The notes under the pieces are model-generated. The model was given only the letters and a program-made list of their open reading frames with translations, was not told the origin of the DNA and made no database searches. The translations under genes were made by a program, and so were the position numbers. From positions 2,400,001-2,464,000 of the forward strand of contig CM000151.3 of NCBI GenBank assembly GCA_000004695.1: a stretch of DNA of 64,000 nucleotides, written 5' to 3'. This DNA is from Dictyostelium discoideum. Lineage: Eukaryota. Numbering within the stretch: position 1 is the stretch's first letter; the number at the start of each line of letters is the position of its first letter. Positions 265 to 18,740 of the stretch are shown piece after piece.

Positions 265-682
265 ATGATCAGAAAACGAATACTATTATTAATTCTAATA
301 ATAATAGTAATATTACAAATTTTTAGGGTTGAAGGAAATCCAGCAATTCAAATTTATGATGTTTCTAGTGAAGAATACTCATATAATAAATATCCAACAA
401 ATACAAATGACAAATATTGTAATTTTTTTTTCTTAATATTTGTAACCGATACTTCAGATACTGGAGTTCAATTAAAAATAAAAACCAACGATTCAGACGC
501 AACAATTTCAACACCAGCATTTAAAAATATTTCAAGTCAAGTTCTTCCAATTTATGTAAATACTAAATCACCAAATGATTATTCATTATTAATTACGGCA
601 GAATATGATAATGATACATCAATTTATAGTAGTATTATAATTAATTATTCTTGTCAATGTTTGTATTGATTATTTTTTTAAG

Positions 683-741
<59 letters not shown>

Positions 742-3700
742 AAATAAATAATTAATTAAATAATTAAATAAATTAAATAGATATTCCACGAGAATCAATG
801 AAAATAAATTTATATCATACTGGTAAATATAAGCATCCAATTTACCCATTTTCAACAATAATGTACATTACAGGATTAAAATACCCATTGGGTCAATTAC
901 AAGTTGACAAACCGTATAATGTAAAAGTTGATAATATAAGGCCATTTGTCTATCATATTGGTGACGAATTTAATGGATTTATTAAACCAGATTTTAATAT
1001 ATCACTATGGTTCATGGATAGTTCAAATAATACTTATTCATTAAATTATACAATTCCAAGTTTAATTTATTCAAGTAAGTAATTATTGTTATTATTATTA
1101 TTGTTTTTATTATTATTATTATTTTAAAAATTAATATATTAAATTATAATTTTAAAAATTCAGATTCAAATGTAAAAGAAAAGGATATTACATTTAAAAT
1201 TTATCCTAATCAAACAAATGTTATAGAATTTGGATTTATTTGTCCACCAATTTATTCTATTACATTAAATGAAACAATTGGATTAAGCGACCCATTGTTT
1301 ATTAATGAAAATATAGGTTTAAATCCATGGGCATCTTATGAAATGCCAGGAAAAGGTACAACATTCCTTGGTCAAGTTTCTTCCGATTATTCAATTGGTG
1401 CTCAAATTAATGGCACCTTAACTACAATTTATTATCAATTTTTAAAGGTCTCATGTAAGTTTATTATTATTATTATTATTTTTTTTTATTATTGTTTATT
1501 TTTATTATTTTAAAAAATCATTTTTGTTAATAATTTTAATAATATTATTATTATTGTTTTTTAAATATATAGATAATATTGATAGAAAATTTCCATCTTT
1601 TCAAATTGATTATTCACCACCATTACCTTCACTTTCATCAATATTTTCAATTAAATTTAATTCAACTAAAAAATTTGATTTATTCAATTATTCAATTAGA
1701 TGGTTTGAAAGTTTTTCAAATAGTTATAAATGGCCTTTTGGTTTCGAAAGTGGTCATAATTCAAATTATTCATTCAAGTCATCATTTCTACAATCTGAAA
1801 TCTCTGTAAATCCCTACAACTCACTTTATTTCAATCAAGATCATTCTTTAACGCAAATTAGTAATCAACAAGGTAATTGTTTTTTTTTATTTTTTATTAT
1901 TATTTAATAAAATTATTATATTAATTAAAATAATTTTATTATAAATAATAGTTGTGGATATAAATACATTACCAATATTAGAATTAGAATCATTTAATTC
2001 TACTCATTTATATAATCAAGTTTATTTATTTAAGATTAAAATAAAACCAATTTATCAAAGTAAAGGGTACAGTACTTTTATTAAAATTAATGATAATGTT
2101 AATCAAGTATTAAGATATGACTCAATGCCTGATATCGAAAACAATATATATGAAACTGTTTTAAATTTTCATGAAGGTATATTAAATAGTTTAAATATTG
2201 GTGATTCTTATTCAAGACAATCTCAATTTTATAATCCATTTCAATATTATTCAATTGATCCACTTTTAAAACTTGATTTTAAATATTCTGATATGATTTC
2301 AGTTTTAATTGGTAATGTAACTTATTTAATAAATAACATTGATGTAACAAATAAATCAGTTGATAATATAATTTATTTCAATTATAATGGTACTCAAGAA
2401 CCTAAAGATGATACAATTAATTTCTCATTTTTAATTTTATCTCATGAGTTTAAAGTAACTGGAGTCGTAGATTATGATAATATTACAACTTCAATTTGGA
2501 ATTCAACAATTTCAAAATATCAAATTAAATTTACAGTTCCTGCAAATACTAGACCTGGTCCACTTGGTTTTGCTTTACTTTGTGGTTATTCAAGTTCATT
2601 AATAAGTGATTTCTTACCTTTATCTTCTCAATTAATTATTGAATCTAAACATTTCGATGAATATGGACCAATATTTAGTAATATTGAAAAAGTTAATTCA
2701 ACAAATGAATTTGGTTGGAAATTTACAATAGATGATCCAATTAATGGTTTTGATTATGCTGATATTATAGTTAGAGGTGAAATGGATAGTTCAACTTATA
2801 AATTCCATTTAACAACTCAAAATTTAACAAGAGGTGATAAATTTAATGGTGATTATCAAATTAATATAACTTTACCAAGTAAATGTGCATCTCAAAATTA
2901 TATTATCACACAAGTTAAATTATATGATACTCAAGGTTATTTAGGTGAATTTTCAGTATCCAGTGGATTTAATGGTATTAGAAATGTATTTATAAATTAT
3001 TTATCAGATCCAACAATAAATAAAGTATATAAAACATGTAGTGGTGAAAATGATGGTATCGATAGTTCACCACCAATTTTAACTTCATTCATACCAATAT
3101 TAAAACAAAATAGTGATGGTACTCAATACTTATCATTCAACTTTGAAGCAGTAGATATTGAAAGTGGTTTAAAAGATAAACAATATCCAATTGTTTATAT
3201 CCAAACAACAGATTTAAGAACACTTGAATGTGTATCATCTATTATTTCAATAAATGAAACAACTTCAACCTATAAATGCACTATCAATTTACCAAATGGA
3301 TTCGGATACAATTCAGATATTATTTTCAGTGTTTATGGATTCATTAATAATGGCGGTTATTATAGCGGATATTCAAGCGAATCACTAAATAGTTTATCTT
3401 TTATATATTCAATGAGCGATATATCCATAAACAAAGTAATACAAATTAATACCTGTAGCAAATTTGTATCTGGTGATAGCGAGTTATGGATAACAGGTAG
3501 AGGTTTCAATTCAACAAAACAACAAGTATATGTAAAATATTTTGGAGAACCTGGATTTAATCAAATAATAGTACCAAATAAAGTTTATTGGAGTGCAATG
3601 TTTATTAAAAATATTAAACCAACTGATAAACCATTCATTATCAAAGTTTCGGACTATCCACTCACATCAAATGAATTCACTGTTATTCCTATAGTTTATA

Positions 3701-4860
3701 ATTTTACGATTCCCTTAACACCAACAGAAACACCAACAGAAACACCAACAGAAACACCAACAGAGACACCAACACAAACACCAATACCTACATCATCACC
3801 AATACCAACGAATAAACCACAAACATGTTTAGGTGAACCAGTATGTGGTGGATCAAAACAAGGTTTTTGTTCATCAAGTGGATGTATTTGTTATCCACCT
3901 TGGATTGGTAATGATTGTAATTCACAAGTTATAATTATACCACAACCATCAACAAATACATCACAACCATCAACTGAATTACCAATTATAGAAAACAATA
4001 ATCAAACATCAAATAGTACAAATTATTTATTCAAATCATTGATTTCAATTGTATCATTAAGAGAATTAGATTTTAATTCAAATCAAGTTAATTTATATAC
4101 ATTTGATAAATGGATTTATACACCAATTAATAATATTAAAAGTCAATACTTTACAAGTATTCAAAGTGGTGATACAAAATCAACAAATACATTAACAACT
4201 AATATTACTGTAACTTTAGAATGGTTCAATCAAACGACAATCATTCAATTTGCAAATAATAATATAACAATGAATCCATCAAGTATTAAATATACAATTG
4301 AAATTACAGAATATAAATTTTTAAATCAATTAAATAGTCTTCAACTTGTAATGTCAGCATTATTCGAATCATCAAATTCCAAAGATACTTGTTCATTAAA
4401 AGAATTTGGAGATACAAGTGATGGTGATAATTCAAACTTCTTTAAAATTCAAATTGATGACCATTCACTTTATGGTAGATTCATTAAAAGAGCAATCATC
4501 GATTCAAAAGTATCTTCAATTGAAAATCAATTATTAGATTCAAAAATGAACTCAATTCAAACATCATCAGTATCACAATCATTCATTGGTATTACAATAC
4601 CAAATTATAAACAATCAATAATTATTGATCCAGACTTTTCAGTATTAGTAGATAGTAAACCAGTATCAAATAATGATAATAATTCAATTTGTACATCAAA
4701 TAAATCAAAACTAACAAGTGCTCAACTCGCTGGTATTATTATTGGTTCCGTTGCTTTTGCCACTGTAGTTATTGTATCAGTTGTTTACTTGGTCGTGAAA
4801 AACAGAAAATCAGATTTATTCCAAAGAAAAGTACAAAACAAATTACAAAAAATGAACTGA
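265..4860 (+). CDS. Tandem paralog 1 of a large type-I membrane glycoprotein family (signal peptide, NxS/T-rich ectodomain, Thr/Pro linker, EGF-like Cys module, single TM helix, short basic tail); 5 exons, ~1396 aa
   Basis: ORF-track pieces 265-669, 798-1082, 1295-1513, 1524-1907, 1954-4860 join through short AT-rich GT..AG introns. Exons are ~265-658, 781-1074, 1164-1454, 1573-1872, 1952-4860, and every junction is phase 1. Donors are gtttgt/gtaagt/gtaatt; acceptors are atag/cag/tatag. N-term MIRKRILLLILIIIVIL is a signal-like peptide. The C-term is AGIIIGSVAFATVVIVSVVYLVV followed by KNRKS. The Cys module CLGEPVCGGSKQGFCSSSGCICYPPWIGNDC is EGF-like. The junctions fit the same model in copies 2 and 3. 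Confidence 0.6.
3718..3777 (+). repeat. Coding 12-bp tandem repeat (acaccaacagaa x4, then variants) giving PTETPTETPTETPTETPTQTP in the mucin-like linker; copies 2 and 3 have only DPTPTQTP here
   Basis: The unit repeats directly in the sequence. It encodes the TETP x4 segment of ORF 1954-4860. The corresponding linker in ORFs 10638-13313 and 16065-18740 is shorter. Confidence 0.8.
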
Positions 4861-5346
4861 TCAGTTAATTTAATTCAAATATTCTAATTAAAAATCTTGG
4901 AAAATAAAAATTATTATTTTTTTTATTAATTTTTAAAAATTTCTTTATGCATTTACTTATTATTTATTTGTCTTTTCTTATGTATATGTAAAAAAAAAAA
5001 TTTCTACTGTAGTGGTTCAACAAAAAAAAAATTAAAAACAAATTAATTAGGTTTACCCACACATTTATTATTTATTTGAAATTATTAAAATTTTTCCAAT
5101 ATTTAAAAATGATGATGTTTAAATTTTTTTATTTTTATTGTTGTTGAAGTGTTAATAAATATTAAACCATTCCTAATGTCATAGTGTATAGATAGATTTA
5201 TATTCTCTCCAATCTTTGGCACAGGATCGTTTGGTAGGTTTATCAGGTTTAATAGTTTTAACAGTTCAACATGTTTAACAGACTGGAAATAAAAAATCTT
5301 CCAATTGAAATTTATTTATTTTATTTTATTTTATTTTATTTTGTTT

Positions 5347-7040
5347 TTATTCATTAAGTTTCATTTCATATAATTTAGCAATATCATCTTCATAATCAGA
5401 AGCTTTTTCAGCAGATTTTTCACAATTAACTTCATTTACATCTTCACCCTTTGAATTTTTAGGTTCAATTTGTTGAACCACTTGAGTCAACTCATCAAAT
5501 TCATCGCTGATTGTTGAGTAACCTTCAACAAATTCTCGTTCACAAGAATTGGAATCATCGAGTAAATTATCAAAGAATTGACCATCGATAAAAGTGTTGA
5601 AAAGTTTTAAACAGTTTGTTTCTTTGGTATGTTTTTTGACAATATTTAATATTTTGGCAATGCCCTCCAAATAGTAATAAAAAGAATTTTTTCGAGCTTT
5701 AGATGCTGAATAATTCTGTTTCAAACATTCAAGACAATCGTTCTGTATTAAGTAAGGCAATTGCAGAGTTGAGAGTATAATTGATTTAATGTCAACTAGT
5801 AATGATGTTGATCTTTTAGAACAAAACATTTGGACATTAGGTAATATCACTGGTGATTCATTCCAAAATAGAGATAGTGTACTCAATTAAGGTATAGTAT
5901 TACATTTGATAGAAATATTGAAAACTCATTCAAAGAAATCACTAGTTTCAAATGTAGCTTGGGTCATTAAAAATCTATGTCGTGGTGTACCACGTACTGA
6001 ATTTAGACTCGTTAAGCCACTATTACCATCAATAAAGAGTTGCTCTTAACTTGGCATAAAGAAGCTGATGTCATATCAGAAGCATTGTGGGCATTATCAT
6101 GCTTGACCGAATCAACCAATGAAGAGCATGAGATCTTTGACAATATTATATCTATGGGATTGGTTGAGGTTATCATTGAAATCATTTTCGAATCAGATCA
6201 AAAAGATTGTATTAAATACGGATTCAATACAATTGGTAATATGCTTTCAGGTTTCTATGACGTTATAGAGTATTTGTTACAATGTAATGTATTGAAAGTG
6301 TTTCCTAAAATCTTATCATCACCATCAGAAGCATTGGTGACGTGAGGTTATTATTTTTTATTATATATTACCAATGGTCCAACAGATCAAGTCCAAAGAG
6401 TCATAGACGAATGTTTGCTTAAAAGAGCTATTGAAACCGGTAAAAACTCATCGATCAATTTAAGAACAAAACTTGAAGCCACCTGCGCTATTGCTAAGGC
6501 TATCTGTGGTGCCTCAACTCTGCAATTGCCTTACTTAATACAGAATTATGAATTTCATTCCCTACAATATAATTTGTATGTTTTGAAGATCCTGATGCAA
6601 CATTTGTTAATGCCCATGATGCTTCGTATTGAATTGAAGTATCTGTTTCATCAACTAAATATCTATGTAAAATTAGTACTAACCCTGAACTAATAACTCT
6701 ATCAATTTGTGGATTATTATCTTTTTTTTATAATAAATAATAAAAAAAAAAAAAAAAAAGTCATTTAAAAAAAAAAAGTCAATTTAAAAAAAAAAAAGTC
6801 AATTAAAAAAAAAAAAAAATAAAAATAAAAAACTTACCATCAGATAAAATTTCTCTAACACATTTAACTGCTTCATATCTTTCTTGTCTATTTGGTGATG
6901 AAATATTTTTAAAAATTAAATAAAATTTATCATTTTGAGTATATATATATAATTAATAAAAATTAATTATTTAAACAAATTGAAAAAATAAAAAAATAAA
7001 AAAAACTTACTAAGGTATTTTGATGTAATGATTCATCGAT
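5347..7040. pseudogene. Importin-alpha (karyopherin-alpha, ARM-repeat) like gene remnant with a rearranged order and internal stops
   Basis: + strand 5790-6350 encodes ARM-repeat motifs: ...IWTLGNITGDSFQNRD (ARM2-like), VSNVAWVIKNLCRG (ARM3-like), EALWALSCLTESTNEEHEIF...IGNMLSG (ARM4-6-like, ORF 6040-6345), with stops and frame changes. - strand 6720-6560 encodes IQYEASWALTNVASGSS (ARM1-like). - strand 6900-6840 encodes NISSPNRQERYEAVKCVREILSDG (IBB-proximal). - strand ORF 5886-5347 encodes a C-terminal-like tail. The ARM1 part is inverted relative to ARM2-6. Confidence 0.45.
5741..6553. repeat. 33-bp perfect inverted repeat (ctcaactctgcaattgccttacttaatacagaa) at 5741-5773 (reverse complement) and 6521-6553 (direct), bracketing the inverted ARM2-6 segment
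   Basis: Direct comparison of the two loci. Both arms translate to STLQLPYLIQN, in - ORF 5347-5886 and in + ORF 6415-6693. Confidence 0.7.
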
Positions 7041-7149
7041 ATGGTGTATGTGTCAAAATATTTTTAAAATTATGGATTTAAAAAAAAAAAAAAAAAAAAT
7101 TATTTGAAAATATTTTTTTTTTTTTTTAAATATTAAATTTTTTATTTTT

Positions 7150-7495
7150 AAATCTTAATAGGAGTTGATAATATAATTTATTTCAATTATAATGATACTC
7201 AGGCCACAGTGATCTTCAGCTACATTCTCACTTTTTATTTTAAATAGTAGTAATACAGATATGATCTAATATATATTTCAATAGTTTCAAAAAATCAAAT
7301 TAAATTTACAGTTCTTACAAATACTAGACCTGATCCACTCAGTTTCTTTTTAATTAGTACTTATCAATCTTCAATAACAAATGATATGTTTCCTTTATCA
7401 TCACAACTATTAATTGTTTCTAAACATTTCAATGAATATGGACCAATATTGACTATGGCGGTTATTATAGCGGATATTCAAGCGAATCACTTATA
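7150..7495 (+). pseudogene. Relic fragment of the membrane-glycoprotein family with an internal ~0.7 kb deletion and stops
   Basis: 7150-7440 matches copy-2 exon 5 around 10875-11190 (SVDNIIYFNYN.TQ...KFTVL.NTRP.PLSFFL...DMFPLSSQL..VSKHF.EYGPI). It then jumps directly to ggcggttattatagcggatattcaagcgaatcact (GGYYSGYSSESL), which is copy-2 ~11860. It has no start codon and does contain in-frame stops. Confidence 0.55.
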
Positions 7496-7977
7496 AAGGA
7501 AATTCCTTTATATAACAAAGGAAAATAATAATGAAAAAAAAGATATTAATATTTAAAATTAATTTAATATTTTTTATCATTTTTATTATAATATCAACAA
7601 ATAATTTTATTTTATTATTCTCTGTGTATTGGTGATTTTTTTTTTTTTTTTTTTTTTTTATAAATTAAAATTCATTGTTCCATAATTTAAATTAAATAAA
7701 GAAATTTATTGTGCATTTTAAAATTAAAATAAATAAACATATTTATTATTTTTTATTGTTTATTGTTTATTGTTTATTACTTTAAAATTAAAATTCTTTA
7801 TTTGATAATATAAATATAACTACTTTACATTTAAATAAACCTATTGATTGATTTTTGTTTAATCCTTTAAATTAAAACTCTTTATTTGGTAATTTAATTA
7901 AAAATGAATAACTGCTTTATATTTTTTTATATTATATTATTTTTTTTTTTAAATTTTTTTATTTTTTTTCTTTGTTT

Positions 7978-8011
<34 letters not shown>

Positions 8012-8276
8012 TTTTTTAAAAAATATATTTTACTAAAATTTTTCAAAATTAATTATTAAAAAAAGGCACAATAGAAAATTCAATAACCAAAATTTTTTTT
8101 TTTGATTTTTTTTATTATATTTTTTTATTTTTTTATTTGGCTAAATTATTACTAAACAAAAAATGGTATACATTTGTAGAGGTTGTAATCAACCTAAAAA
8201 AGAACAATGTCAATGCAAACAACTACTAGCAACATTAGGAACACAACAAAAACTAATACAAGCACAACAACAACTA

Positions 8277-8390
8277 ATACAACAACAAAATCCAAACACA
8301 AATCATATTATGCCAAGTCTTCAATCTGATGAATTCACAACTAATACAACAAAATCCAAACACAAGTCATATTATGCCAAGTCTTCAAGC
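8277..8390 (+). repeat. ~48-bp direct repeat x2 (aatacaacaacaaaatccaaacacaa(a/g)tcatattatgccaagtcttcaa) separated by 18 bp
   Basis: Seen directly in the sequence. It lies inside the low-complexity ORF 8163-8393, which has no other gene support. Confidence 0.5.
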
Positions 8391-8532
8391 TAATGGATTT
8401 ATAACAACTAAACAAGGTATTTTGGACTAAATAAACAAAATCTTCAACAAATAAAACATAAATGATTTTATTCCAGATCCAACTCTACCAAACAAATTTT
8501 ATGTTAGTATTAGAAATTAAATAAATTAAACA

Positions 8533-8580
<48 letters not shown>

Positions 8581-8697
8581 GTACCATTTATAATGTGTTT
8601 GTTGGGATCAAAAAAAAGAAATAAAAAATAAAAACAATGAAATTTTGTTGTGAGGTAGTCTTGAAATTCAAAAAATATTTTTTTTAATTTTTTTTTT

Positions 8698-8757
8698 AAA
8701 ATATCTTTTTATAAATATCTTTTTATAAATATCTTTATCAAATCGTAAAAAAAAAAA
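8698..8757 (+). promoter_or_regulatory. Conserved upstream element: (AAATATCTTTTT)x3 followed by CAAATCGTAAAAAAAAAA, ~55 bp upstream of the copy-2 ATG
   Basis: A nearly identical element at 14044-14100 precedes the copy-3 ATG, with x2 of the first box. A related aaaatatctattttt box at 20581-20595 precedes copy 4. aaaatatctttgg sits in the palindrome loop upstream of copy 5. Confidence 0.4.
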
Positions 8758-8809
8758 TGGGGAACGTTTTTTTTTTTTTTTTTTTTATTTTTTTTTTTAA
8801 AAAAAAAAA

Positions 8810-11800
8810 ATGATAAAGAAAATTTTATTAATAATCCTAACATTGGTGATAATAAATAGCTTTTCAACAATAAATAATTTAATAATTGGGGTTGAAGGAC
8901 AGTTTCAATTGTATGATATTACAAATCAAGAAGAAGGTGCTTATAATAGATACCCAGATTCAACAAATCAAAAAATTTGTTCATATGTTTTTTCGATTGC
9001 AATAGTTGATTACTCGAATAGTGGGGCAACTTTGAATGTTTTCACCAATGATACAGATGCAATGGTCTATCAAATCATTAGGAAAGAATATGGAGGAATT
9101 GCCACAGTTATAGTTAAAAATAAAACACCAAATACTTATACATTATTAATAAATGCAACATTGCAAAATGGTCAAAATATTTATAAGAATATCTCAATAA
9201 CTTATTCTTGTGAATGTTTGTATATAAAATTTAAAATTAAAAAAACAAAAATAAATAATTAATTAATTTCAATACCAATTTTATATAGATATCCCTCGAG
9301 AATTGATGAAGGTCAATGTTTTAACAAGTAACAATTATAAATTTACAATTAATCCTTATACAACATTAATACACTTTACAGGTTTAAAATATCAAATATC
9401 TTATCTAAATGTTTCAAGTCCTTCTTGGATAAACATAAATAATTTTTATTCAAATTTATTATATGTTAGTGTAGATTTTAATAAATATAATTTTGTACCA
9501 GAGTCTAATATATCAATACTTTTCTTGGATAGTTCAGATCAACAATATACTGTGAATATTACAATTCCTTTTTTTTATTTTTCAAGTAAGTATAATAATT
9601 AAATTTAAAAAAAAAAAAATAAGATATTAAAATTATTATTATTATAAGAAATGAATGTAGAAGAAAAGGATATTACATTCAAGATCTATCCAAACCAAAC
9701 CGATGTTACAGTACTTGGAGTTAATTGTTCACCAGTTTACTCTATTACATTAAATGAAACCATTGAATATGATCCATTATTTATTGAAGATGTTTCACGT
9801 CGTATGCCTACTCCATCATATGAAATACCAGGAAAAGGTACAACATTCATTGGTTATGTTTATACACAATATTCTATTTTCGCACAAATTAATAACTCAT
9901 TAACAACAATTTATAGTAACCCAAATTTAAATGTTTCAAGTAAGTTTTTTAAAATTAAATTCAATTACTTTTTAATATATACATATATCAAAGATTAATT
10001 TCTATTGACATTATTTAAAAAAAAATGAATAGAAAACTTTAATTTTACATTTCCAAATGTCATTGTTGAACCAGTATCATTACCTTTAATATTAAACTCA
10101 ACAATGTTTTCATTTGGGTTCACTTCAAGTTTTCAGTATGCAATTTTTCCATTTTATTTTAGATGGAATTTAGGTTTTCAATATATCTTTAGTTGGCCAT
10201 TTGGGTTTGAAAGTGGTCAAAATTCAAACTATTCTTTAAAAGTATCATTTTTAAAACCCACGTATTCGCCAAACAATTTTGGTTTATTGACCTTTAATAA
10301 TGAAAATTTTATTATTCAAATAGACAATAGTAAGTATATATACATATAATCATTAATATTCTAATATACATATATAATCATTAATATTCTAAACTACTAC
10401 TGAATAACACACACACACACCCCACACACAAACAAGTACTAACATTAAAAAATATTTTTAAAAATAGCGATAAATTCATCATTACTACCATTAGAATTAG
10501 AATCATGTAAAGTTATATACCTTTTTGAACAATTTCATTTATTAATAATTAAAATAAAACCAACATATAAAGAGATTGGTTATAATCTTTTCATTCAAAT
10601 TAATGATGATGCAAATGCAATATATAGACAAGAATCATTGGTAGATGCTGAAAATAATATATATGAAATTGTTTATGATTTTAAAGGGCGTGGATTTTCA
10701 GTTTTATCTATTGGAGATTCAACTTTTAAAAAGAGTCAAGTTTATTATGTAAATAGTTATTTTTCAATTAATCCATTTTCAGTTATAGATTATAAAGCTC
10801 CAACAATATTACCTGTTTTAATAGAAAATATTACATTTTTAAAAAATTATATTGATGTGGCAAATAAATCAGTTGATAATATAATTTATTTCAATTATAA
10901 TGGTACTCAAGCCCATAGTGATCCTTCAGCTTCATTCTCACTTTTTATTTTAAATAGTAATACCACAGAATCTAATATAGTTTTCGATAGTTTAAAGTTT
11001 GCAACTTGGAATTCAACAATTTCAAAATATCAAATTAAATTTACAGTTCTTGCAAACACTAGACCTGGTCCACTCAGTTTCTTTTTAATGTGTGGTTATC
11101 AATCTTCAATAACAAATGATATGTTTCCTTTATCATCACAACTATTTATTGTTTCTAAACATTTCGATGCGTATGGACCAATATTTAGTAATATTGAAAA
11201 AATTAATTCACCAAATGAATTTGGTTGGAAATTTACAATAGATGATCCAATTAATGGTTTTGATTATGGTGATATTATAGTGAGAGGTGAAATGGATAGT
11301 TCAACTTATAAATTCCATTTAACAACTCAAAATTTAACAAGAGGTGATAAATTTAATGGTGATTATCAAATTAATATAACTTTACCAAGTAAATGTGCAT
11401 CTCAAAATTATATTATCACACAAGTTAAATTATATGATACTCAAGGCTTTTCAGGTGAATTTTATGTAGTTGGTGAAATGGATGGTATTAAAAATGTATT
11501 TATAAATTATTTATCAGATCCAACAATAAATAAAGTATATAAAACATGTAGTGGTGAAAATGATGGTATCGATAGTTCACCACCAATTTTAACTTCATTC
11601 ATACCAATATTAAAACAAAATAGTGATGGTACTCAATACTTATCATTCAACTTTGAAGCAGTAGATATTGAAAGTGGTTTAAAAGATAAACAATATCCAG
11701 TTGTTTATATTGAAACAATAGAAGTACAAACACTTGAATGTGTATCATCTATTATTTCAATAAACGAAACAGCTGCAACCTATACATGTACTATCGATTT

Positions 11801-13313
11801 ACCAATAGGATTTGGATACAATTCAGATATTATTTTCAGTGTTTATGGATTCATTAATAATGGCGGTTATTATAGCGGATATTCAAGCGAATCACTAAAT
11901 AATTTATCTTTTATATATACAATTAATAATATAACTTTTAATAAAGTAATACAAATCACAAAATGCAGTAAATTTAATTCATTTGATAGCGAGTTATGGA
12001 TAACAGGTAGATGTTTCAATTCAACGCAACAAGTATATGTAAAATATGAAGGAGACTCAAGCTTTAATCAAATAGTACCAACTACAGTTTATTGGAGTGC
12101 AATTTTTATTAAAAATATTAAACCAACCGATAAACCATTCATTATCAAAGTTTCAGACCTACCACTCACATCAAATGAATTCACTGTCAATCCAATAGTT
12201 TATAATTTTATAGATCCAACACCAACACAAACACCAATACCTACATCATCACCAATGCCAACGAATAAACCACAAACATGTTTAGGTGAACCAGTATGTG
12301 GTGGATCAAAACAAGGTTTTTGTTCATCAAGTGGATGTATTTGTTATCCACCTTGGATTGGTAATGATTGTAATTCACAAGTTATAATTATACCACAACC
12401 ATCAACAAATACATCACAACCATCAACTGAATTACCAATTATCGATAACAATAATCAAACATCAAATAGTACAAATTATTTATTCAAATCATTGATTTCA
12501 ATTGTATCATTAAGAGAATTAGATTTTAATTCAAATCAAGTTAATTTATATACATTTGATAAATGGATTTATACACCAATTAATAATATTAAAAGTCAAT
12601 ACTTTACAAGTATTCAAAGTGGTGATACAAAATCAACAAATACATTAACAACCAATATTACTGTAACTTTAGAATGGTTCAATCAAACGACAATTATTCA
12701 ATTCGCAAATAATAATATAACAATGAATCCATCAAGTATTAAATATACAATTGAAATTACAGAATATAAATTTTTAAAACAATTAAATAGTCTTCAACTT
12801 GTAATGTCAGCATTATTCGAATCATCAACTTCCAAAGATACTTGTTCATTAAAAGTATTTGGAGATACAAGCGATGGTGATAATTCAAACTTCTTTAAAA
12901 TTCAAATTGATGATCATTCACTTTATGGTAGATTCATTAAAAGAGCAATCATCGATTCAAAAGTGTCTTCAATTGAAAATCAATTATTAGATTCAAAAAT
13001 GAACTCAATTCAAACATCATCAGTATCACAATCATTCATTGGTATTACAATACCAAACTATAAACAATCAATAATTATTGATCCAGACTTTTCAGTATTA
13101 GTAGATAGTAAACCAGTATCAAATAATGATAATAATTCAATTTGTACATCAAATAAATCAAAACTAACAAGTGCTCAACTCGCTGGTATTATTATTGGTT
13201 CTATTGCTTTTGCCACTGTAGTTATTGTATCAGTTGTTTACTTGGTTGTGAAAAACAGAAAATCAAAAAAATTCCAAAGAAAAGTACAAAAGAAATTACA
13301 AACAATTAACTGA
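8810..13313 (+). CDS. Tandem paralog 2 of the type-I membrane glycoprotein family; 5 exons, ~1378 aa
   Basis: Exons ~8810-9215, 9289-9585, 9649-9939, 10033-10329, 10468-13313, all phase-1 junctions (gtttgt/gtaagt donors, atag/taag/aatag acceptors). Exon lengths are 406, 297, 291, 297 and 2846 nt, giving an unbroken frame. ORF track: 8810-9262, 9303-9602, 9651-9998, 10104-10349, 10638-13313. Signal MIKKILLIILTLVIINS. TM AGIIIGSIAFATVVIVSVVYLVV. Confidence 0.65.
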
Positions 13314-14214: not shown

Positions 14215-14635
14215 ATGATAAAGAAAATTTTATTGATAATCCTAACATTGGCGATAATAAATAGCTTTTCAACAATAAATAATTTAATAATTGGGGTTGA
14301 AGGACAGTTTCAATTGTATGATATTACAAATCAAGAAGAAGGTGCTTATAATAGATACCCAGATTCAACAAATCAAAAAATTTGTTCATATGTTTTTTCG
14401 ATTGCAATAGTTGATTACTCGAATAGTGGAACAAATTTGATGGTTTTCACCAATGACACAGATGCAACAGTCTCTCTAATCAATAAGAAAGAATATGGAG
14501 GAATTGCCACAGTTATAGTTAAAAATAAAACACCAAATACTTATACATTATTAATAAATGCAACATTGCAAAATGATCAAATTATTTATAAAAATATCTC
14601 AATAACTTATTCTTGTGAATGTTTGTATATAAAAC

Positions 14636-14680
<45 letters not shown>

Positions 14681-15037
14681 AAAAAAAAAAAAAAAATAAT
14701 TAACTTTAATATCAATTTTATAGATATCCCTCGAGAATTGATGAAGGTCAATGTTTTAACAAGTAACAATTATAAATTTACACTTTTTCCTTATACAGCA
14801 ACAATACACTTTGCAGGTTTAAAATATCCACTAAATTTGCTAAATGTTTCAAGTCCTTCAAATGTTGCAATGAGCTTAGAGGGATATTCAAATTTATTCT
14901 TTGTTGGTGTAGGATTTGATAAAAATAATTTAATATCAGAGTTTAATATATCAATAAGATTCTTGGATAGTTCAGATCAACAATATACTGTAAATATTAC
15001 AATTCCTTTTTTATATTTTTCAAGTAAGTATAATAAT

Positions 15038-15068
<31 letters not shown>

Positions 15069-18000
15069 GATATTAAAATTATTATTATTTTAAGAAATGA
15101 ATGTAGAAGAAAAGGATATTACATTTAAGATCTACCCAAACCAAACTGATGTTAAAGAATTTGGAATTAATTGTTCACCAGTTTACTCTATTACATTAAA
15201 TGAAACCATTGAATATGATCCATTATTTATTGAAGATATTACAAATAATATTCCAACTCCATCATATGAAATACCAGGAAAAGGTACAACATTCATTGGC
15301 CAAGTTCATACACAATATTCTATTTTCGCAAAAATTAATAACTCATTAACAACAATTTATAGTGATCCAAATTTAAATGTTTTTAGTAAGTTTGTTAAAA
15401 TTAAATTTAATTACTTTTTAATATATACATATATCAAAGATTAATTTCTATTGACATTATTTTAATTTTTTTTTTTAAAAAAATGAATAGATAATTTTAA
15501 TTTTACATTTCCAAATGTCATTGTTGAACCAATATCAGTACCTTTAACATTAAACTCAACAATGTTTTCATTTGGATTCAATTCAAATACCCAGTATGAA
15601 ACATTTTCATTTTATTTTAGATGGAATTTAGGTTTTCAATATATCTTTAGTTGGCCATTTGGGTTTGAAAGTGGTCAAAATTCAAACTATTCTTTAAAAG
15701 CATCATTTTTAAAACCCACATATTCGCCAAACAATTTTGGTTTATTGACCTTTAATAATCGAAATTTAAATATTCAAATAGACAATAGTAAGTATATACA
15801 CATATAAAATCATTAATATTCTAAACTACTACCGAACAACACACACACACTCAAAACAATTACTAACATTAAAAAATATTTTTAAATATAGCAATAAATT
15901 CATCATTACTACCATTAGAATTAGAATCATGTAAAGTTATATACCTTTTTGAACAATTTCATTTATTAAGAATTAAAATAAAACCAACATATAAAGAGAT
16001 TGGTTATAATCTTTTCATTCAAATTAATGATGATGATGCAAATGGAATATATAGACAAGAATCATTGGTAGATGCTGAAAATAATATATATGAAATTGTT
16101 TATGATTTTAAAGGGCGTGGTTTTCAATTTTTATCTATTGGAGATTCAACTTTTAAAAAGAGTCAAGTTTATTATTTAAATAGTTATTTTTCAATTAATC
16201 CATTTTCAGTTATAGATTATAAAGCTCCAACAATATTACCTGTTTTAATAGAAAATATTACATTTTTAAAAAATTATATTGATGTGGCAAATAAATCAGT
16301 TGATAATATAATTTATTTCAATTATAATGGTACTCAAACCCATAGTAATCCTTCAGCTTCATTCTCACTTTTTATTTTAAATAGTAATACCACAGATTCT
16401 AATATAGATTTCAATAGTTTAAAGTTTGCAACTTGGAATTCAACAATTTCAAAATATCAAATTAAATTTACAGTTCTTGCAAACACTAGACCTGGTCCAC
16501 TCAGTTTCTTTTTATGGTGTGGTTTTCGAGCAATAACAAATGATATGTTTCCTTTATCATCACAACTAATAGTTGTTTCTAAACATTTCGATGAATATGG
16601 ACCAATATTTAGTAATATTGAAAAGGTTAATTCAACAAATGAATTTGGTTGGAAATTTACAATAGATGATCCAATTAATGGTTTTGATTATGGTGATATT
16701 ATAGTGAGAGGTGAAATGGATAGTTCAACTTATAAATTCCATTTAACAACTCAAAATTTAACAAGAGGTGATAAATTTAATGGTGATTATCAAATTAATA
16801 TAACTTTACCAAGTAAATGCGCATCTCAAAATTATATTATCACACAAGTTAAATTATATGATACTCAAGGTTATTCAGGTGAATTTTCAGTAGTTAATGG
16901 AATAGATGGTATTAAAAATGTATTTATAAATTATTTATCAGATCCAACAATAAATAAAGTATATAAAACATGTAGTGGTGAAAATGATGGTATCGATAGT
17001 TCACCACCAATTTTAACTTCATTCATACCAATATTAAGACAAAATAGTGATGGTACTCAATATTTATTATTCAACTTTGAAGCAGTAGATATTGAAAGTG
17101 GTTTAAAAGATAAACAATATCCAATTGTTTACATTCAAACAATAGAAGCACAAACACTTGAATGTGTATCATCTATTATTTCAATAAACGAAACAGCTGC
17201 AACCTATACATGTACCATCAATTTACCAATAGGATTTGGATACAATTCAGATATTATTTTCAGTGTTTATGGATTCATTAATAATGGCGGTTATTATAGC
17301 GGATATTCAAGCGAATCACTAAATAATTTATCTTTTATATATACAATTAATAATATAGCTTTTAATAAAGTAATACAAATCACAAAATGCAGTAAATTTA
17401 ATTCATTTGATAGCGAGTTATGGATAACAGGTAGATGTTTCAATTCAACGCAACAAGTATATGTAAAATATGAAGGAGACTCAAGCTTTAATCAAATAAT
17501 AGTACCAACTACAGTTTATTGGAGTGCAATGTTTATTAAAAATATTAAACCAACTGATAAACCATTCATTATCAAAGTTTCAGACCTACCACTCACATCA
17601 AATGAATTCACTGTCAATCCAATAGTTTATAATTTTATAGATCCAACACCAACACAAACACCAATACCTACATCATCACCAATACCAACGAATAAACCAC
17701 AAACATGTTTAGGTGAACCAGTATGTGGTGGATCAAAACAAGGTTTTTGTTCGCCAAGTGGATGTATTTGTTATCCACCTTGGATTGGTAATGATTGTAA
17801 TTCACAAGTTATAATTATACCACAACCATCAACAAATACATCACAGCCATCAACTGAATTACCAATTATCGATAACAATAATCAAACATCAAATAGTACA
17901 AATTATTTATTCAAATCATTGATTTCAATTGTATCATTAAGAGAATTAGATTTTAATTCGAATCAAGTTAATTTATATACATTTGATAAATGGATTTATA

Positions 18001-18740
18001 CACCAATTAATAATATTAAAAGTCAATACTTTACAAGTATCCAAAGTGGTGATACAAAATCAACAAATCCATTAATAACTAATATTACTGTAACTTTAGA
18101 ATGGTTCAATCAAACAAAAATCATTCAATTCGCAAATAATAATATAACAATGAATCCATCAAGTATTAAATATACAATTGAAATTACAGAATATAAATTT
18201 TTAAATCAATTAAATAGTCTTCAACTTGTAATGTCAGCATTATTCGAATCATCAACTTCCAAAGATACTTGTTCATTAAAAGAATTTGGAGATACAAGCG
18301 ATGGTGATAATTCAAACTTCTTTAAAATTCAAATTGATGACCATTCACTTTATGGTAGATTCATTAAAAGAGCAATCATCGATTCAAAAGTATCTTCAAT
18401 TGAAAATCAATTATTAGATTCAAAAATGAACTCAGTTCAAACATCATCAGTATCACAATCATTCATTGGTATTACAATACCAAACTATAAACAATCAATA
18501 ATTATTGATCCAGACTTTTCAGTATTAGTAGATAGTAAACCAGTATCAAATAATGATAATAATTCAATTTGTACATCAAATAAATCAAAACTAACAAGTG
18601 CTCAACTCGCTGGTATTATTATTGGTTCCGTTGCTTTTGCCACTGTAGTTATTGTATCAGTTGTTTACTTGGTTGTGAAAAACAAAAAATCGGTTTTGTT
18701 CCAAAGAAAAGTACAAAACAAATTACAAAAAATGAACTGA
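14215..18740 (+). CDS. Tandem paralog 3 of the type-I membrane glycoprotein family; 5 exons, ~1379 aa; near-identical to paralog 2
   Basis: Exons ~14215-14620, 14724-15023, 15095-15385, 15491-15787, 15892-18740, all phase 1. The real ATG is at 14215 (MIKKILLIILTLAIINS); ORF 14125 begins upstream in poly-K/F. ORF track: 14738-15040, 15097-15444, 15562-15807, 16065-18740. Confidence 0.65.

What the first reader, a model, noticed from the sequence alone, without database searches (positions are those of the whole stretch)
5347..7040. Importin-alpha-like pseudogene carrying an internal inversion bounded by a 33-bp inverted repeat
The ARM-repeat order is scrambled. IBB-proximal and ARM1 pieces read on the - strand (6900-6560). 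ARM2-6 read on the + strand (5790-6350). A C-terminal-like tail reads on the - strand again (5770-5347). Flipping the segment between the 33-bp inverted repeats (5741-5773 / 6521-6553) restores a colinear - strand gene. The repeats encode the same peptide STLQLPYLIQN on opposite strands. So this is either an IR-mediated inversion caught in the sequence or an inverted segmental duplication inside a decaying paralog.
Basis: partly seen in the sequence, partly recalled or inferred. Interest (0 to 1): 0.6.

Follow-up and report, generated by a model that had tools for sequence, protein, structure and literature searches.

The report
Dead importin-like gene copy, middle flipped
This is a decaying spare copy of a Dictyostelium importin-alpha-like gene whose middle 0.77 kb was flipped in one breakage-and-rejoining event. 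That event also created the 33-bp inverted repeat, so this is a clean small example of a known rearrangement signature, not a new kind of element.

Summary
It bounds a segment read on the + strand, inside a gene otherwise read on the - strand.

The window is D. discoideum AX4 chromosome 2. The gene is an unprocessed, dispersed duplicate of DDB_G0277993, an importin-alpha-like ARM protein with no IBB domain. Three pieces of the copy tile the parent exactly once. Only the 33-mer is present twice.

The copy is dead: ATG lost, two in-frame stops, a 1-nt deletion, and branch dN/dS 0.68 against 0.15 for the parent. An independent de novo assembly matches 5280-7160 base for base, so this is not a misassembly.

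A remnant of the same pseudogene at the syntenic site in a D. cf. discoideum strain is un-inverted across breakpoint A and has no 33-mer there. The repeat therefore did not exist before the inversion. It is most likely a by-product of it: a break staggered by about 33 nt, filled in and end-joined with 0 and 1 nt of microhomology, or a single template switch.

The AX4 models DDB_G0272594 and DDB_G0273973 are a chimeric fragment of this pseudogene. Known kind, modest interest.

The parts
5289..5346 (-). 3' flank copied with the gene; homology to the parent's 3' flank ends at about 5289
   Evidence: blastn to L001-L003; alignments
5347..5740 (-). Distal part of exon 3 (ARM8b to the acidic C-terminus, stop TAA at 5347-5349). 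In-frame deletions of 3, 72 and 24 nt relative to the AX4 parent at 5470/5469, 5428/5427 and 5422/5421
5741..5773 (-). Left arm of the inverted repeat. It is the ARM8 tract X in coding orientation on the - strand (STLQLPYLIQN) and continues in frame into 5740-5347. Base 5773 (G) is also the G of the parental ...CATAA|G|AGTATA... at breakpoint A, giving 1 nt of junction microhomology
5774..6512 (+). Inverted segment of exon 3 (ARM2b to ARM8a), now on the opposite strand. In-frame TAA at 5888-5890 (parent GAG), 1-nt deletion between 6039 and 6040, in-frame TGA at 6343-6345 (parent GAG)
6513..6545 (+). Right arm of the inverted repeat. It is the same tract X in coding orientation on the + strand, continuous with the upstream ARM8a sequence, so it is the copy that moved with the inverted segment
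6546..6720 (-). Proximal part of exon 3 (ARM1 to ARM2a). It ends at breakpoint A (...GAAATTCATAA)
6721..6837 (-). Intron 2, retained at the parental position
6838..6934 (-). Exon 2
6935..7010 (-). Intron 1, retained (69 of 76 aligned bases identical to the AX4 parent)
7011..7046 (-). Exon 1. The start codon ATG is replaced by CAC, next to a deletion of about 35 bp in the 5' leader
7047..7090 (-). 5' flank copied with the gene. Homology is recognisable to about 7085. The true edge lies somewhere before the ComC fragment at 7163 and is blurred by A/T runs
5347..5829 (-). Annotated 160-aa ORF DDB_G0272594 = DDB_G0273973 (Q556L3). It spans the left junction: 19 codons read antisense to ARM2 coding sequence, followed by the last 141 codons of the pseudogene
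   Evidence: exact look-up; ORF list; no Pfam hit

Best explanation
Window 5289 to about 7090 is an unprocessed pseudogene in D. discoideum AX4 chromosome 2. It is a dispersed DNA-level copy of about 1.8 kb of DDB_G0277993, an importin-alpha-like ARM-repeat gene without an IBB domain. The copy kept both introns and short flanks, and it landed between two tandem ComC-family genes in the ancestor of the D. discoideum species complex. It has been decaying since. Later, on the lineage leading to the NC4-derived lab strains, one rearrangement inverted about 0.77 kb of exon 3. At the ARM2 breakpoint (A) the DNA broke cleanly. At the ARM8 breakpoint (B) the two strands were cut about 32-33 nt apart. 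Both overhangs were filled in and the ends rejoined in inverted order by end joining, with 0 and 1 nt of microhomology. That left the 33-bp tract at both ends of the inverted segment in opposite orientation. The inverted repeat is therefore a scar of the inversion, not its cause. The locus has no function. The annotated 160-aa ORF is a chimeric by-product. Shown here: the identity of the parent, the tiling of the three pieces, the lesions, relaxed constraint, the un-inverted ancestral state, and the independent assembly. Inferred: the staggered cut with fill-in and end joining. A single replicative template switch would give the same product.
For: Parent and tiling: three blastn pieces tile the intact gene once, abutting at one base at A and overlapping by about 33-36 bp at B. 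MAFFT of the re-inverted model against the parents is colinear through both introns and the flanks. The parent is DDB_G0277993, and the window ORF equals DDB_G0272594/DDB_G0273973 on the 8,484,197-bp contig. Pseudogene status: ATG->CAC, TAA 5888-5890, a 1-nt deletion at 6039/6040 and TGA 6343-6345. Branch dN/dS is 0.68 (0.67, 0.65 and 0.75 in the three pieces) against 0.15 on the parent lineage, with similar dS of 0.157 and 0.128. Real DNA: an independent Nanopore+Illumina de novo assembly (L007) is colinear with window 4201-28749 at 99.85% and matches 5280-7160 exactly (assembly method from PMC12745789). The repeat did not pre-exist. All parents read ...ATTCATAAGAGTATAATTG... at A and hold tract X only once. 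The syntenic remnant in D. cf. discoideum (L011 9330-9610) reads ...ATTCATAAGAGTATAATTGATTTAATATCAG..., which is un-inverted and lacks X. It shares 4 derived substitutions with the AX4 pseudogene over 199 sites. Timing: the pseudogene branches outside the discoideum/cf. discoideum parents (99.7% bootstrap) and inside D. citrinum (100%). The arms are 33/33 identical to each other, whereas X differs from the AX4 parent tract at several positions. No foreign DNA: every base at both junctions is accounted for by parental sequence. Precedent: inverted duplications of single-copy breakpoint sequence, often at only one breakpoint, are explained by staggered breaks plus NHEJ in Drosophila, where the shortest is 46 bp (PMC1885836).
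Against: The breakage chemistry cannot be read from the product. A single intramolecular template switch, or staggered breaks on sister chromatids, gives the identical sequence. A stagger of 33 nt is long for a simple nuclease cut. No full-length un-inverted allele was recovered, because the D. cf. discoideum remnant covers breakpoint A only. The ancestral state at B is therefore inferred from the parent genes. dN/dS of 0.68 is below 1, so a short functional period after duplication, or a bias of the counting method in this AT-rich genome, cannot be excluded. That assembly GCA_054883475.1 is strain AX2-214 is my inference from its 99.85% identity and the strain list of the paper. It is not stated in any tool output.
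Confidence: 0.8

Rival explanations
1. Single replicative template switch (FoSTeS/MMBIR-like, or a long version of short template-switch mutations). The nascent strand left the template at the end of ...CATAA, copied the opposite strand backwards from the end of X to the G at breakpoint A, then returned to the start of X. This gives inversion plus a 33-bp inverted duplication in one step without double-strand breaks.
For: The product predicted by this path is exactly the observed order P - rc(X) - rc(S) - X - T. Like the favoured model, it needs only one event and no pre-existing repeat.
Against: Microhomology at the two switch points is 0 and 1 nt (read). Template-switch junctions usually show 2 nt or more (general knowledge). 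The switch would have to span about 0.77 kb. The sequence alone cannot exclude it.
Confidence: 0.25
2. Two-step, repeat-mediated inversion. A reverse copy of the 33-mer was first inserted at the ARM2 site. Homologous recombination between the two arms then flipped the segment between them.
For: The final product is compatible. The arms are 100% identical.
Against: No genome shows the required intermediate. Parents in five genomes, and the orthologous pseudogene remnant in D. cf. discoideum, have no repeat copy at breakpoint A. It needs two rare events where one suffices, and the first step would itself be a template switch. 33 bp is a short substrate for homologous recombination (general knowledge). 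The same orientation is found in both assemblies of the lineage.
Confidence: 0.1
3. Assembly artefact: the inversion exists only in the AX4 Sanger assembly.
For: The region lies in the AX4 chromosome 2 duplication, shown by two gene identifiers for one protein. The two copies there could not be assembled independently.
Against: A de novo Nanopore+Illumina assembly of a near-identical strain contains window 5280-7160 as an exact 1,881-bp match, including both junctions. It differs from the window elsewhere, by a 20-bp insertion at 7601 and by 6 mismatches and 7 gaps over 24.5 kb, so it is not a copy of the reference.
Confidence: 0.01
4. Inverted segmental duplication inside a paralogue. The + strand block would be a second, inverted copy added to a gene.
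For: None beyond the 33-bp repeat.
Against: The three pieces tile the parent once with no other overlap. Their identities to the AX4 parent are similar (85, 81 and 82%), as are their branch dN/dS values (0.67, 0.65 and 0.75).
Confidence: 0.01
5. The locus still encodes something. The chimeric 160-aa ORF DDB_G0272594, or the 158-aa + strand model called in the other assembly, would be a real lineage-specific protein.
For: Two annotation pipelines each called a gene here. The last 141 parental codons are still open.
Against: The C-terminal piece evolves at dN/dS 0.75, like the rest of the pseudogene. The ORF has no Pfam domain. From the density of lesions in the middle piece, I estimate that an open stretch of 141 codons would survive by chance with probability of roughly 0.3. 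The two pipelines chose different, mutually exclusive fragments. No paper mentions these genes.
Confidence: 0.05

Closest known systems
Inversions flanked by inverted duplications of single-copy breakpoint sequence (staggered-break model; Ranz et al. 2007, PLoS Biol, PMC1885836)
   Same: A sequence that is single-copy in the ancestral arrangement and sits at one breakpoint is found at both ends of the inverted segment in opposite orientation. No repeats or transposons lie at the breakpoints. [quoted passage not shown]
   Different: The scale is far smaller: a 0.77-kb inversion inside one exon of a pseudogene, against chromosomal inversions. The 33-bp duplication compares with 46 bp to 1.9 kb there. 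The organism is an amoebozoan, and the locus is neutral, so there is no position effect or selection to discuss.
Template-switch mutations and replicative rearrangements (FoSTeS/MMBIR; short template switches of Loytynoja and Goldman 2017). Recalled from memory, not checked here.
   Same: One event yields an inverted copy in place, plus a new inverted repeat where the copied interval overshoots the replaced one.
   Different: It is much longer than typical short template switches, which are tens of bp. Only 0 and 1 nt of microhomology are present. There is no net gain of copy number beyond 33 bp.
Importin alpha (karyopherin alpha) family
   Same: The ARM-repeat core of the parent DDB_G0277993 aligns colinearly with rice importin alpha-1a, residues 15-416 to 37-429, E 1e-74. 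The W...N motifs of ARM2-4 and ARM7-8 are kept.
   Different: There is no IBB domain and no Pfam Arm_3 match in the parent or in any of the four orthologues. The protein starts at about residue 60 of a canonical importin alpha. The pseudogene has lost the W/N residues of ARM7 and ARM8 (GYYFLLYITNG and EATCAIAKAICG).
Unprocessed (duplicated) pseudogenes
   Same: Introns and flanks are retained, disabling mutations are present, and constraint is relaxed.
   Different: It additionally carries an internal micro-inversion. One fragment is still annotated as a protein-coding gene in AX4.

Membership tests
Importin alpha family | N-terminal importin-beta-binding (IBB) domain, Pfam PF01749 | tested here: not met
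   Pfam finds only Arm and ARM-like models in the re-inverted model and in the parent P0016, even at E 0.1. Precomputed Pfam for P0001-P0004 lacks PF01749. The parent's residue 21 aligns to residue 81 of full-length rice importin alpha.
Importin alpha family | Colinear core of about ten ARM repeats | tested here: met
   Each alignment is one colinear stretch. The pseudogene model aligns 6-382 to 7jjl 20-386, E 1.8e-52. The parent aligns 15-416 to 2yns 37-429, E 1e-74.
Importin alpha family | W...N arrays on helix 3 of ARM2-4 and ARM7-8, which are the major and minor NLS-binding sites by established structural knowledge | tested here: met
   The parent has EASWALTNVASG, NIWALGNIIGD, ISWTISNLCRG, GYWCLSNITSG and ITWAIINAITG aligned to the rice motifs. 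In the pseudogene ARM2-4 are kept, but ARM7 and ARM8 are degraded to YYFLLYITNG and ATCAIAKAICG. NLS binding itself was not tested.
Importin alpha family | C-terminal atypical ARM (Pfam Arm_3, PF16186; binding region for the export receptor CAS) | tested here: not met
   There is no PF16186 hit for P0016 or the pseudogene model, although canonical importin alphas carry it.
Unprocessed duplicated pseudogene | Derived from an identifiable intact parent, with introns and flanks copied | tested here: met
   It is 80-85% identical to DDB_G0277993 loci, including both introns at parental positions and short 5' and 3' flanks.
Unprocessed duplicated pseudogene | Disabling lesions and relaxed selective constraint | tested here: met
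   Lost ATG, two in-frame stops, one frameshift and the inversion. Branch dN/dS is 0.68 against 0.15.
Inversion with breakpoint duplication (staggered-break class) | The duplicated tract is single-copy and lies at one breakpoint in the ancestral arrangement | tested here: met
   Parents in five genomes have tract X once, at ARM8. The orthologous un-inverted remnant has no X at breakpoint A. The ancestral state at B in the pseudogene itself is inferred from the parents.
Inversion with breakpoint duplication (staggered-break class) | The two copies lie at the two ends of the inverted segment in opposite orientation, and each keeps one authentic flank | tested here: met
   The right arm is continuous with upstream ARM8a on the + strand. 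The left arm is continuous with downstream ARM8b on the - strand.
Inversion with breakpoint duplication (staggered-break class) | No repetitive or transposon sequence at the breakpoints, and end-joining type junctions | tested here: met
   All junction bases are parental, with microhomology of 0 and 1 nt.
Inversion with breakpoint duplication (staggered-break class) | Staggered nicks with fill-in actually occurred | not testable with these tools
   The product is identical to that of a single template switch or of sister-chromatid staggered breaks.
Inverted-repeat-mediated (homologous recombination) inversion | The inverted repeat is present before the inversion | tested here: not met
   It is absent at breakpoint A in all parents and in the D. 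cf. discoideum remnant of the same pseudogene.
Inverted-repeat-mediated (homologous recombination) inversion | Both orientations are recoverable in a population or in reads | not testable with these tools
   Only one orientation is seen in the two assemblies of the lineage. Reads were not available.

The most novel reading that the evidence does not exclude
The micro-inversion fused 19 codons read antisense to ARM2 with the last 141 codons of the importin-like gene. That created the ORF annotated as DDB_G0272594/DDB_G0273973, present in two copies in AX4. If this ORF is transcribed and translated, it would be a lab-lineage-specific chimeric gene born from a pseudogene by an inversion, with a partly de novo N-terminus.
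Probability: 0.04. Interest if true: 0.45.

Novelty: new member of a known kind. Interest (0 to 1): 0.27.

Why it matters
It gives a base-pair-resolved natural micro-inversion in an amoebozoan for which the ancestral, un-inverted state is documented twice: in the parent gene and in an orthologous remnant. The evidence shows that the flanking inverted repeat is a scar of the event and not its cause. That is a useful caution against reading every repeat-flanked inversion as repeat-mediated.

It is also one more data point that the breakpoint-duplication signature described in Drosophila occurs at sub-kilobase scale outside animals.

On the practical side, DDB_G0272594 and DDB_G0273973 in AX4, and the 158-aa model in the newer assembly, should be re-annotated as fragments of one pseudogene of DDB_G0277993. 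None of this changes how any system is thought to work.

Tried and rejected
The repeat finder on 4000-9000 did not list the 33-bp repeat among its top 25, because long A/T-rich low-complexity pairs outrank it. I found it by an exact search instead.

The homologue search with the 478-aa re-inverted model did not return the AX4 model P0018, although 141 residues are identical. An exact look-up did find it. Absence from that search is therefore weak evidence, and I ran no further search on it.

The look-up of encoding contigs has no record for P0018. As a result, no Logan or short-read contigs could be used to check the junctions.

The paper search for the three DDB_G identifiers found nothing.

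A retrocopy origin is rejected because both introns are retained.

Synteny with the parent locus is rejected. The parent lies between an ETF gene and a gene of about 3,300 aa, and shares no flanks with the window.

A recent, AX4-specific insertion was considered when four other genomes lacked the pseudogene at the syntenic site. I rejected it after finding remnants there in three of them, and because the pseudogene branch is long.

I looked for 3-nt microhomology (CTC) at the distal junction. The sequence fits only 1 nt.

All 12 look-ups of encoding contigs were used. Whole-genome searches of the other Dictyostelium assemblies were not possible with these tools.
Full report
1. WHAT IS IN THE SEQUENCE

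The window is AT-rich, about 22% G+C. The 33-mer TTCTGTATTAAGTAAGGCAATTGCAGAGTTGAG lies at 5741-5773 on the + strand, and its exact reverse complement lies at 6513-6545. With up to three mismatches allowed, these are the only two matches in 64 kb, and none is expected by chance.

Six-frame translation and the ORF list show that both arms read STLQLPYLIQN, one on each strand. Coding sequence similar to importin alpha runs as follows:
- on the - strand from 7046 to 6546, interrupted by two A/T-rich introns;
- on the + strand from 5774 to 6545;
- on the - strand again from 5773 to 5347.

2. RE-INVERSION TEST

A translation built in the order (6546-7040, -) + (5774-6512, +) + (5773-5347, -) aligns to solved importin alphas in one colinear stretch. 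An example is importin alpha-3, 7jjl, query 6-382 to chain 20-386, E 1.8e-52. Pfam sees only ARM repeats and no IBB domain.

The same model covers 100% of four intact proteins of 512-527 aa:
- D. cf. discoideum, 69% identity;
- D. discoideum, 67%;
- D. citrinum, 63%;
- D. firmibasis, 57%.

3. IDENTITY OF THE LOCUS AND OF THE PARENT

Exact look-up shows that the ATG-initiated ORF 5347-5829 (-) is the AX4 protein DDB_G0272594 = DDB_G0273973 (Q556L3, 160 aa), on a contig of 8,484,197 bp. Two gene identifiers with one sequence are what genes inside the AX4 chromosome 2 duplication have. The duplication itself is described in PMC12745789.

The intact relative in the same genome is DDB_G0277993 (Q54YZ3, 524 aa). 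It lies between an ETF gene and a gene of about 3,300 aa and shares no flanks with the window.

Its ARM core aligns to rice importin alpha-1a (residues 15-416 to 37-429, E 1e-74) with the W...N motifs of ARM2-4 and ARM7-8 conserved. However, it starts at about residue 60 of a canonical importin alpha and has neither an IBB nor an Arm_3 match in Pfam. 'Importin-alpha-like' is fair. 'IBB-proximal' is not.

4. DNA-LEVEL ANATOMY

blastn against the intact gene loci shows that three pieces tile the parent once. In L002 coordinates:
- window 6546-7042 = 10520->10005 (-);
- window 5772-6549 = 10520->11298 (+);
- window 5415-5772 = 11622->11263 (-);
- window 5289-5433 = 11803->11671 (-).

The pieces abut at a single base at breakpoint A. 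They overlap by the repeat, plus a few chance bases, at breakpoint B.

A MAFFT alignment of the re-inverted sequence with three parental loci is colinear through both introns, about 40 or more bp of 5' flank and about 60 bp of 3' flank. The copy was therefore made from DNA, not from mRNA.

Using the AX4 parent's exon structure, the map is as follows:

| Feature | Window coordinates |
|---|---|
| exon 1 | 7046-7011 |
| intron 1 | 7010-6935 |
| exon 2 | 6934-6838 |
| intron 2 | 6837-6721 |
| exon 3a | 6720-6546 |
| right arm | 6513-6545 |
| inverted block | 5774-6512 |
| left arm | 5741-5773 |
| exon 3c | 5740-5347 |

The lesions are:
- ATG -> CAC at the start codon, beside a deletion of about 35 bp in the leader;
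- TAA at 5888-5890 and TGA at 6343-6345, both GAG in the parent;
- a 1-nt deletion at 6039/6040;
- in-frame deletions of 3, 72 and 24 nt in the acidic tail.

5. IS IT DEAD?

I assigned substitutions to branches by parsimony, with D. citrinum as outgroup.
- The pseudogene branch has dN/dS 0.68, and 0.67, 0.65 and 0.75 in the N-terminal, inverted and C-terminal pieces.
- The parental lineage has dN/dS 0.15.
- dS is similar on the two, 0.157 and 0.128, as it must be for sister branches.

All three pieces are equally old and equally unconstrained. This also argues against the inverted block being a later, separate insertion.

6. IS IT AN ASSEMBLY ERROR?

No. Locus L007 comes from GCA_054883475.1, one of the Nanopore+Illumina de novo assemblies of Holland et al. 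2025 (PMC12745789). It is colinear with window 4201-28749 at 99.85% identity, with 6 mismatches and 7 gaps. It contains window 5280-7160 as an exact match, including both junctions, yet differs by a 20-bp insertion at 7601.

I infer that this assembly is the lab strain AX2-214, the only lab strain in that project. This is an inference, not a tool result.

7. HISTORY OF THE LOCUS

A neighbour-joining tree of the genomic sequences places the pseudogene after the split from D. citrinum (100% bootstrap) and outside the clade of parents from AX4, another D. discoideum strain and D. cf. discoideum (99.7%). Its own branch of 0.141 is about twice the parental path of about 0.068.

At first the pseudogene seemed absent from the syntenic gap between the same two ComC-family genes in four other genomes. 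Closer inspection found remnants at that site:
- D. cf. discoideum (L011 9330-9610): about 245 bp remain, covering the end of exon 2, intron 2, exon 3a and 26 nt beyond breakpoint A. This is 88% identical to window 6546-6756.
- One D. discoideum strain (L004 14874-14912): 39 bp of the 3' coding end remain.
- Another D. discoideum strain (L010, up to 7931): the 3'-flank end of the copied block remains.

The duplicate is therefore ancestral to the D. discoideum complex at this site. It was mostly deleted elsewhere, plausibly through the instability of the tandem ComC array; that last point is inference.

8. THE DECISIVE OBSERVATION

In gene orientation, the D. cf. discoideum remnant reads ...GAATGAAATTCATAAGAGTATAATTGATTTAATATCAG.... 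This is the parental order straight across breakpoint A, with no copy of the 33-mer.

It is orthologous to the AX4 pseudogene, not to the parent, on two grounds:
- It sits at the same intergenic site.
- Over 199 sites where three parents are invariant, it shares 4 derived substitutions with the AX4 pseudogene, against 7 AX4-only and 6 remnant-only changes.

Hence the pseudogene was originally un-inverted and had no inverted repeat. The inversion arose later, on the lineage of the NC4-derived lab strains.

The arms are 33/33 identical, while tract X has diverged from the AX4 parental tract at several positions. Take a neutral divergence of about 0.14-0.16 on the pseudogene branch. The chance of zero differences between the arms is exp(-2 x 33 x d), where d is the divergence since the inversion. 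It falls below 5% once d exceeds about 0.045. The inversion therefore falls in roughly the last third of the pseudogene's history. This is my own calculation and it ignores gene conversion.

9. MECHANISM

Write the ancestral exon as P-G-S-X-T, where:
- P ends in ...ATTCATAA;
- G is a single base;
- S is AGTATAATT...GGTGC;
- X is the 33-mer in its coding orientation, CTCAACTCTGCAATTGCCTTACTTAATACAGAA, the reverse complement of the + strand string in section 1;
- T is CGATTGTC....

The present - strand reads P - rc(X) - rc(S) - X - T. The complement of G coincides with the first C of X. So either 32 bp were duplicated with 1 nt of junction microhomology, or 33 bp were duplicated with a 1-nt loss. 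The P|rc(X) junction has no microhomology.

This is the product expected if:
- breakpoint A was a clean break;
- breakpoint B was cut on the two strands about 33 nt apart;
- both overhangs were filled in;
- the ends were joined in inverted order.

That is the staggered-break model proposed for Drosophila inversions. There, inverted duplications of unique breakpoint sequence accompany 17 of 29 inversions, are often one-sided, and are as short as 46 bp (PMC1885836).

A single template switch during replication would yield the same sequence. I rank it second because the junctions carry only 0 and 1 nt of homology. Recombination between pre-existing repeats needs an unobserved intermediate and a second event, so I rank it third.

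10. COMPARISON AND VERDICT

The locus works like nothing. It is a neutral relic. Its interest is mechanistic and for annotation.

It is a new, very small and unusually well-polarised example of a known rearrangement signature, sitting in an unprocessed pseudogene of an IBB-less importin-alpha-like gene. The AX4 gene models DDB_G0272594 and DDB_G0273973, and the 158-aa + strand model in the newer assembly, are fragments of this pseudogene.

Its interpretation is partly supported. The inversion in a pseudogene stands, but the repeat as cause and the segmental-duplication alternative do not.

Noticed in passing
window 7163-7530: A decayed fragment of a ComC-family (EGF-like / ComC_SSD) gene on the + strand. 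It is about 82% identical to neighbouring paralogues (for example L004 17837-18151; L010 12094-12408 and 13057-13154), has an internal deletion, and directly abuts the 5' flank of the importin-like pseudogene. It may be the relic of a lost array member.
   Followed up: partly
window 265-25540: A tandem array of ComC-family genes: A at 265-4860 (five exons by tblastn with P0019), B at about 8810-13313, C at 14215-18740 (= AX4 protein P0022), and more downstream. Intergenic spacers differ strongly between strains, 0.45 to 3.9 kb at the spacer that holds the pseudogene.
   Followed up: partly
L003 3001-4772 (parent gene DDB_G0277993; not in the window): An importin-alpha-like ARM protein conserved in five group-4 Dictyostelium genomes. 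It has no IBB domain and no Arm_3 match, yet keeps the W...N motifs of both NLS-binding sites, and it is under purifying selection (dN/dS 0.15). An NLS binder that cannot dock on importin beta would be worth a look in its own right.
   Followed up: partly
window 7601 vs L007 3401: The other assembly of the lineage carries a 20-bp insertion here (ATAATTTTATTTTATTATTC, a tandem copy of the adjacent sequence). It is the only difference between the two assemblies in window 5000-7600.
   Followed up: no
window 8163-8500: A Q/N-rich ORF at 8163-8393 contains a 64-nt tandem repeat (two copies, 86% identical, 8273-8400). The homologous place in another D. discoideum strain is annotated as a 108-aa gene (L010 9206-9532).
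   Followed up: no
window 8005-8222 vs L004 15572-15361: A 218-bp stretch of the same intergenic spacer matches the other strain in reverse orientation (82.5% identity). This may be a second small inversion in this spacer.
   Followed up: no
tool behaviour: The word-indexed homologue search did not return the 160-aa AX4 protein that is identical to 141 residues of the query, although the exact look-up found it. Negative results from that search should be read with care for short proteins.
   Followed up: partly
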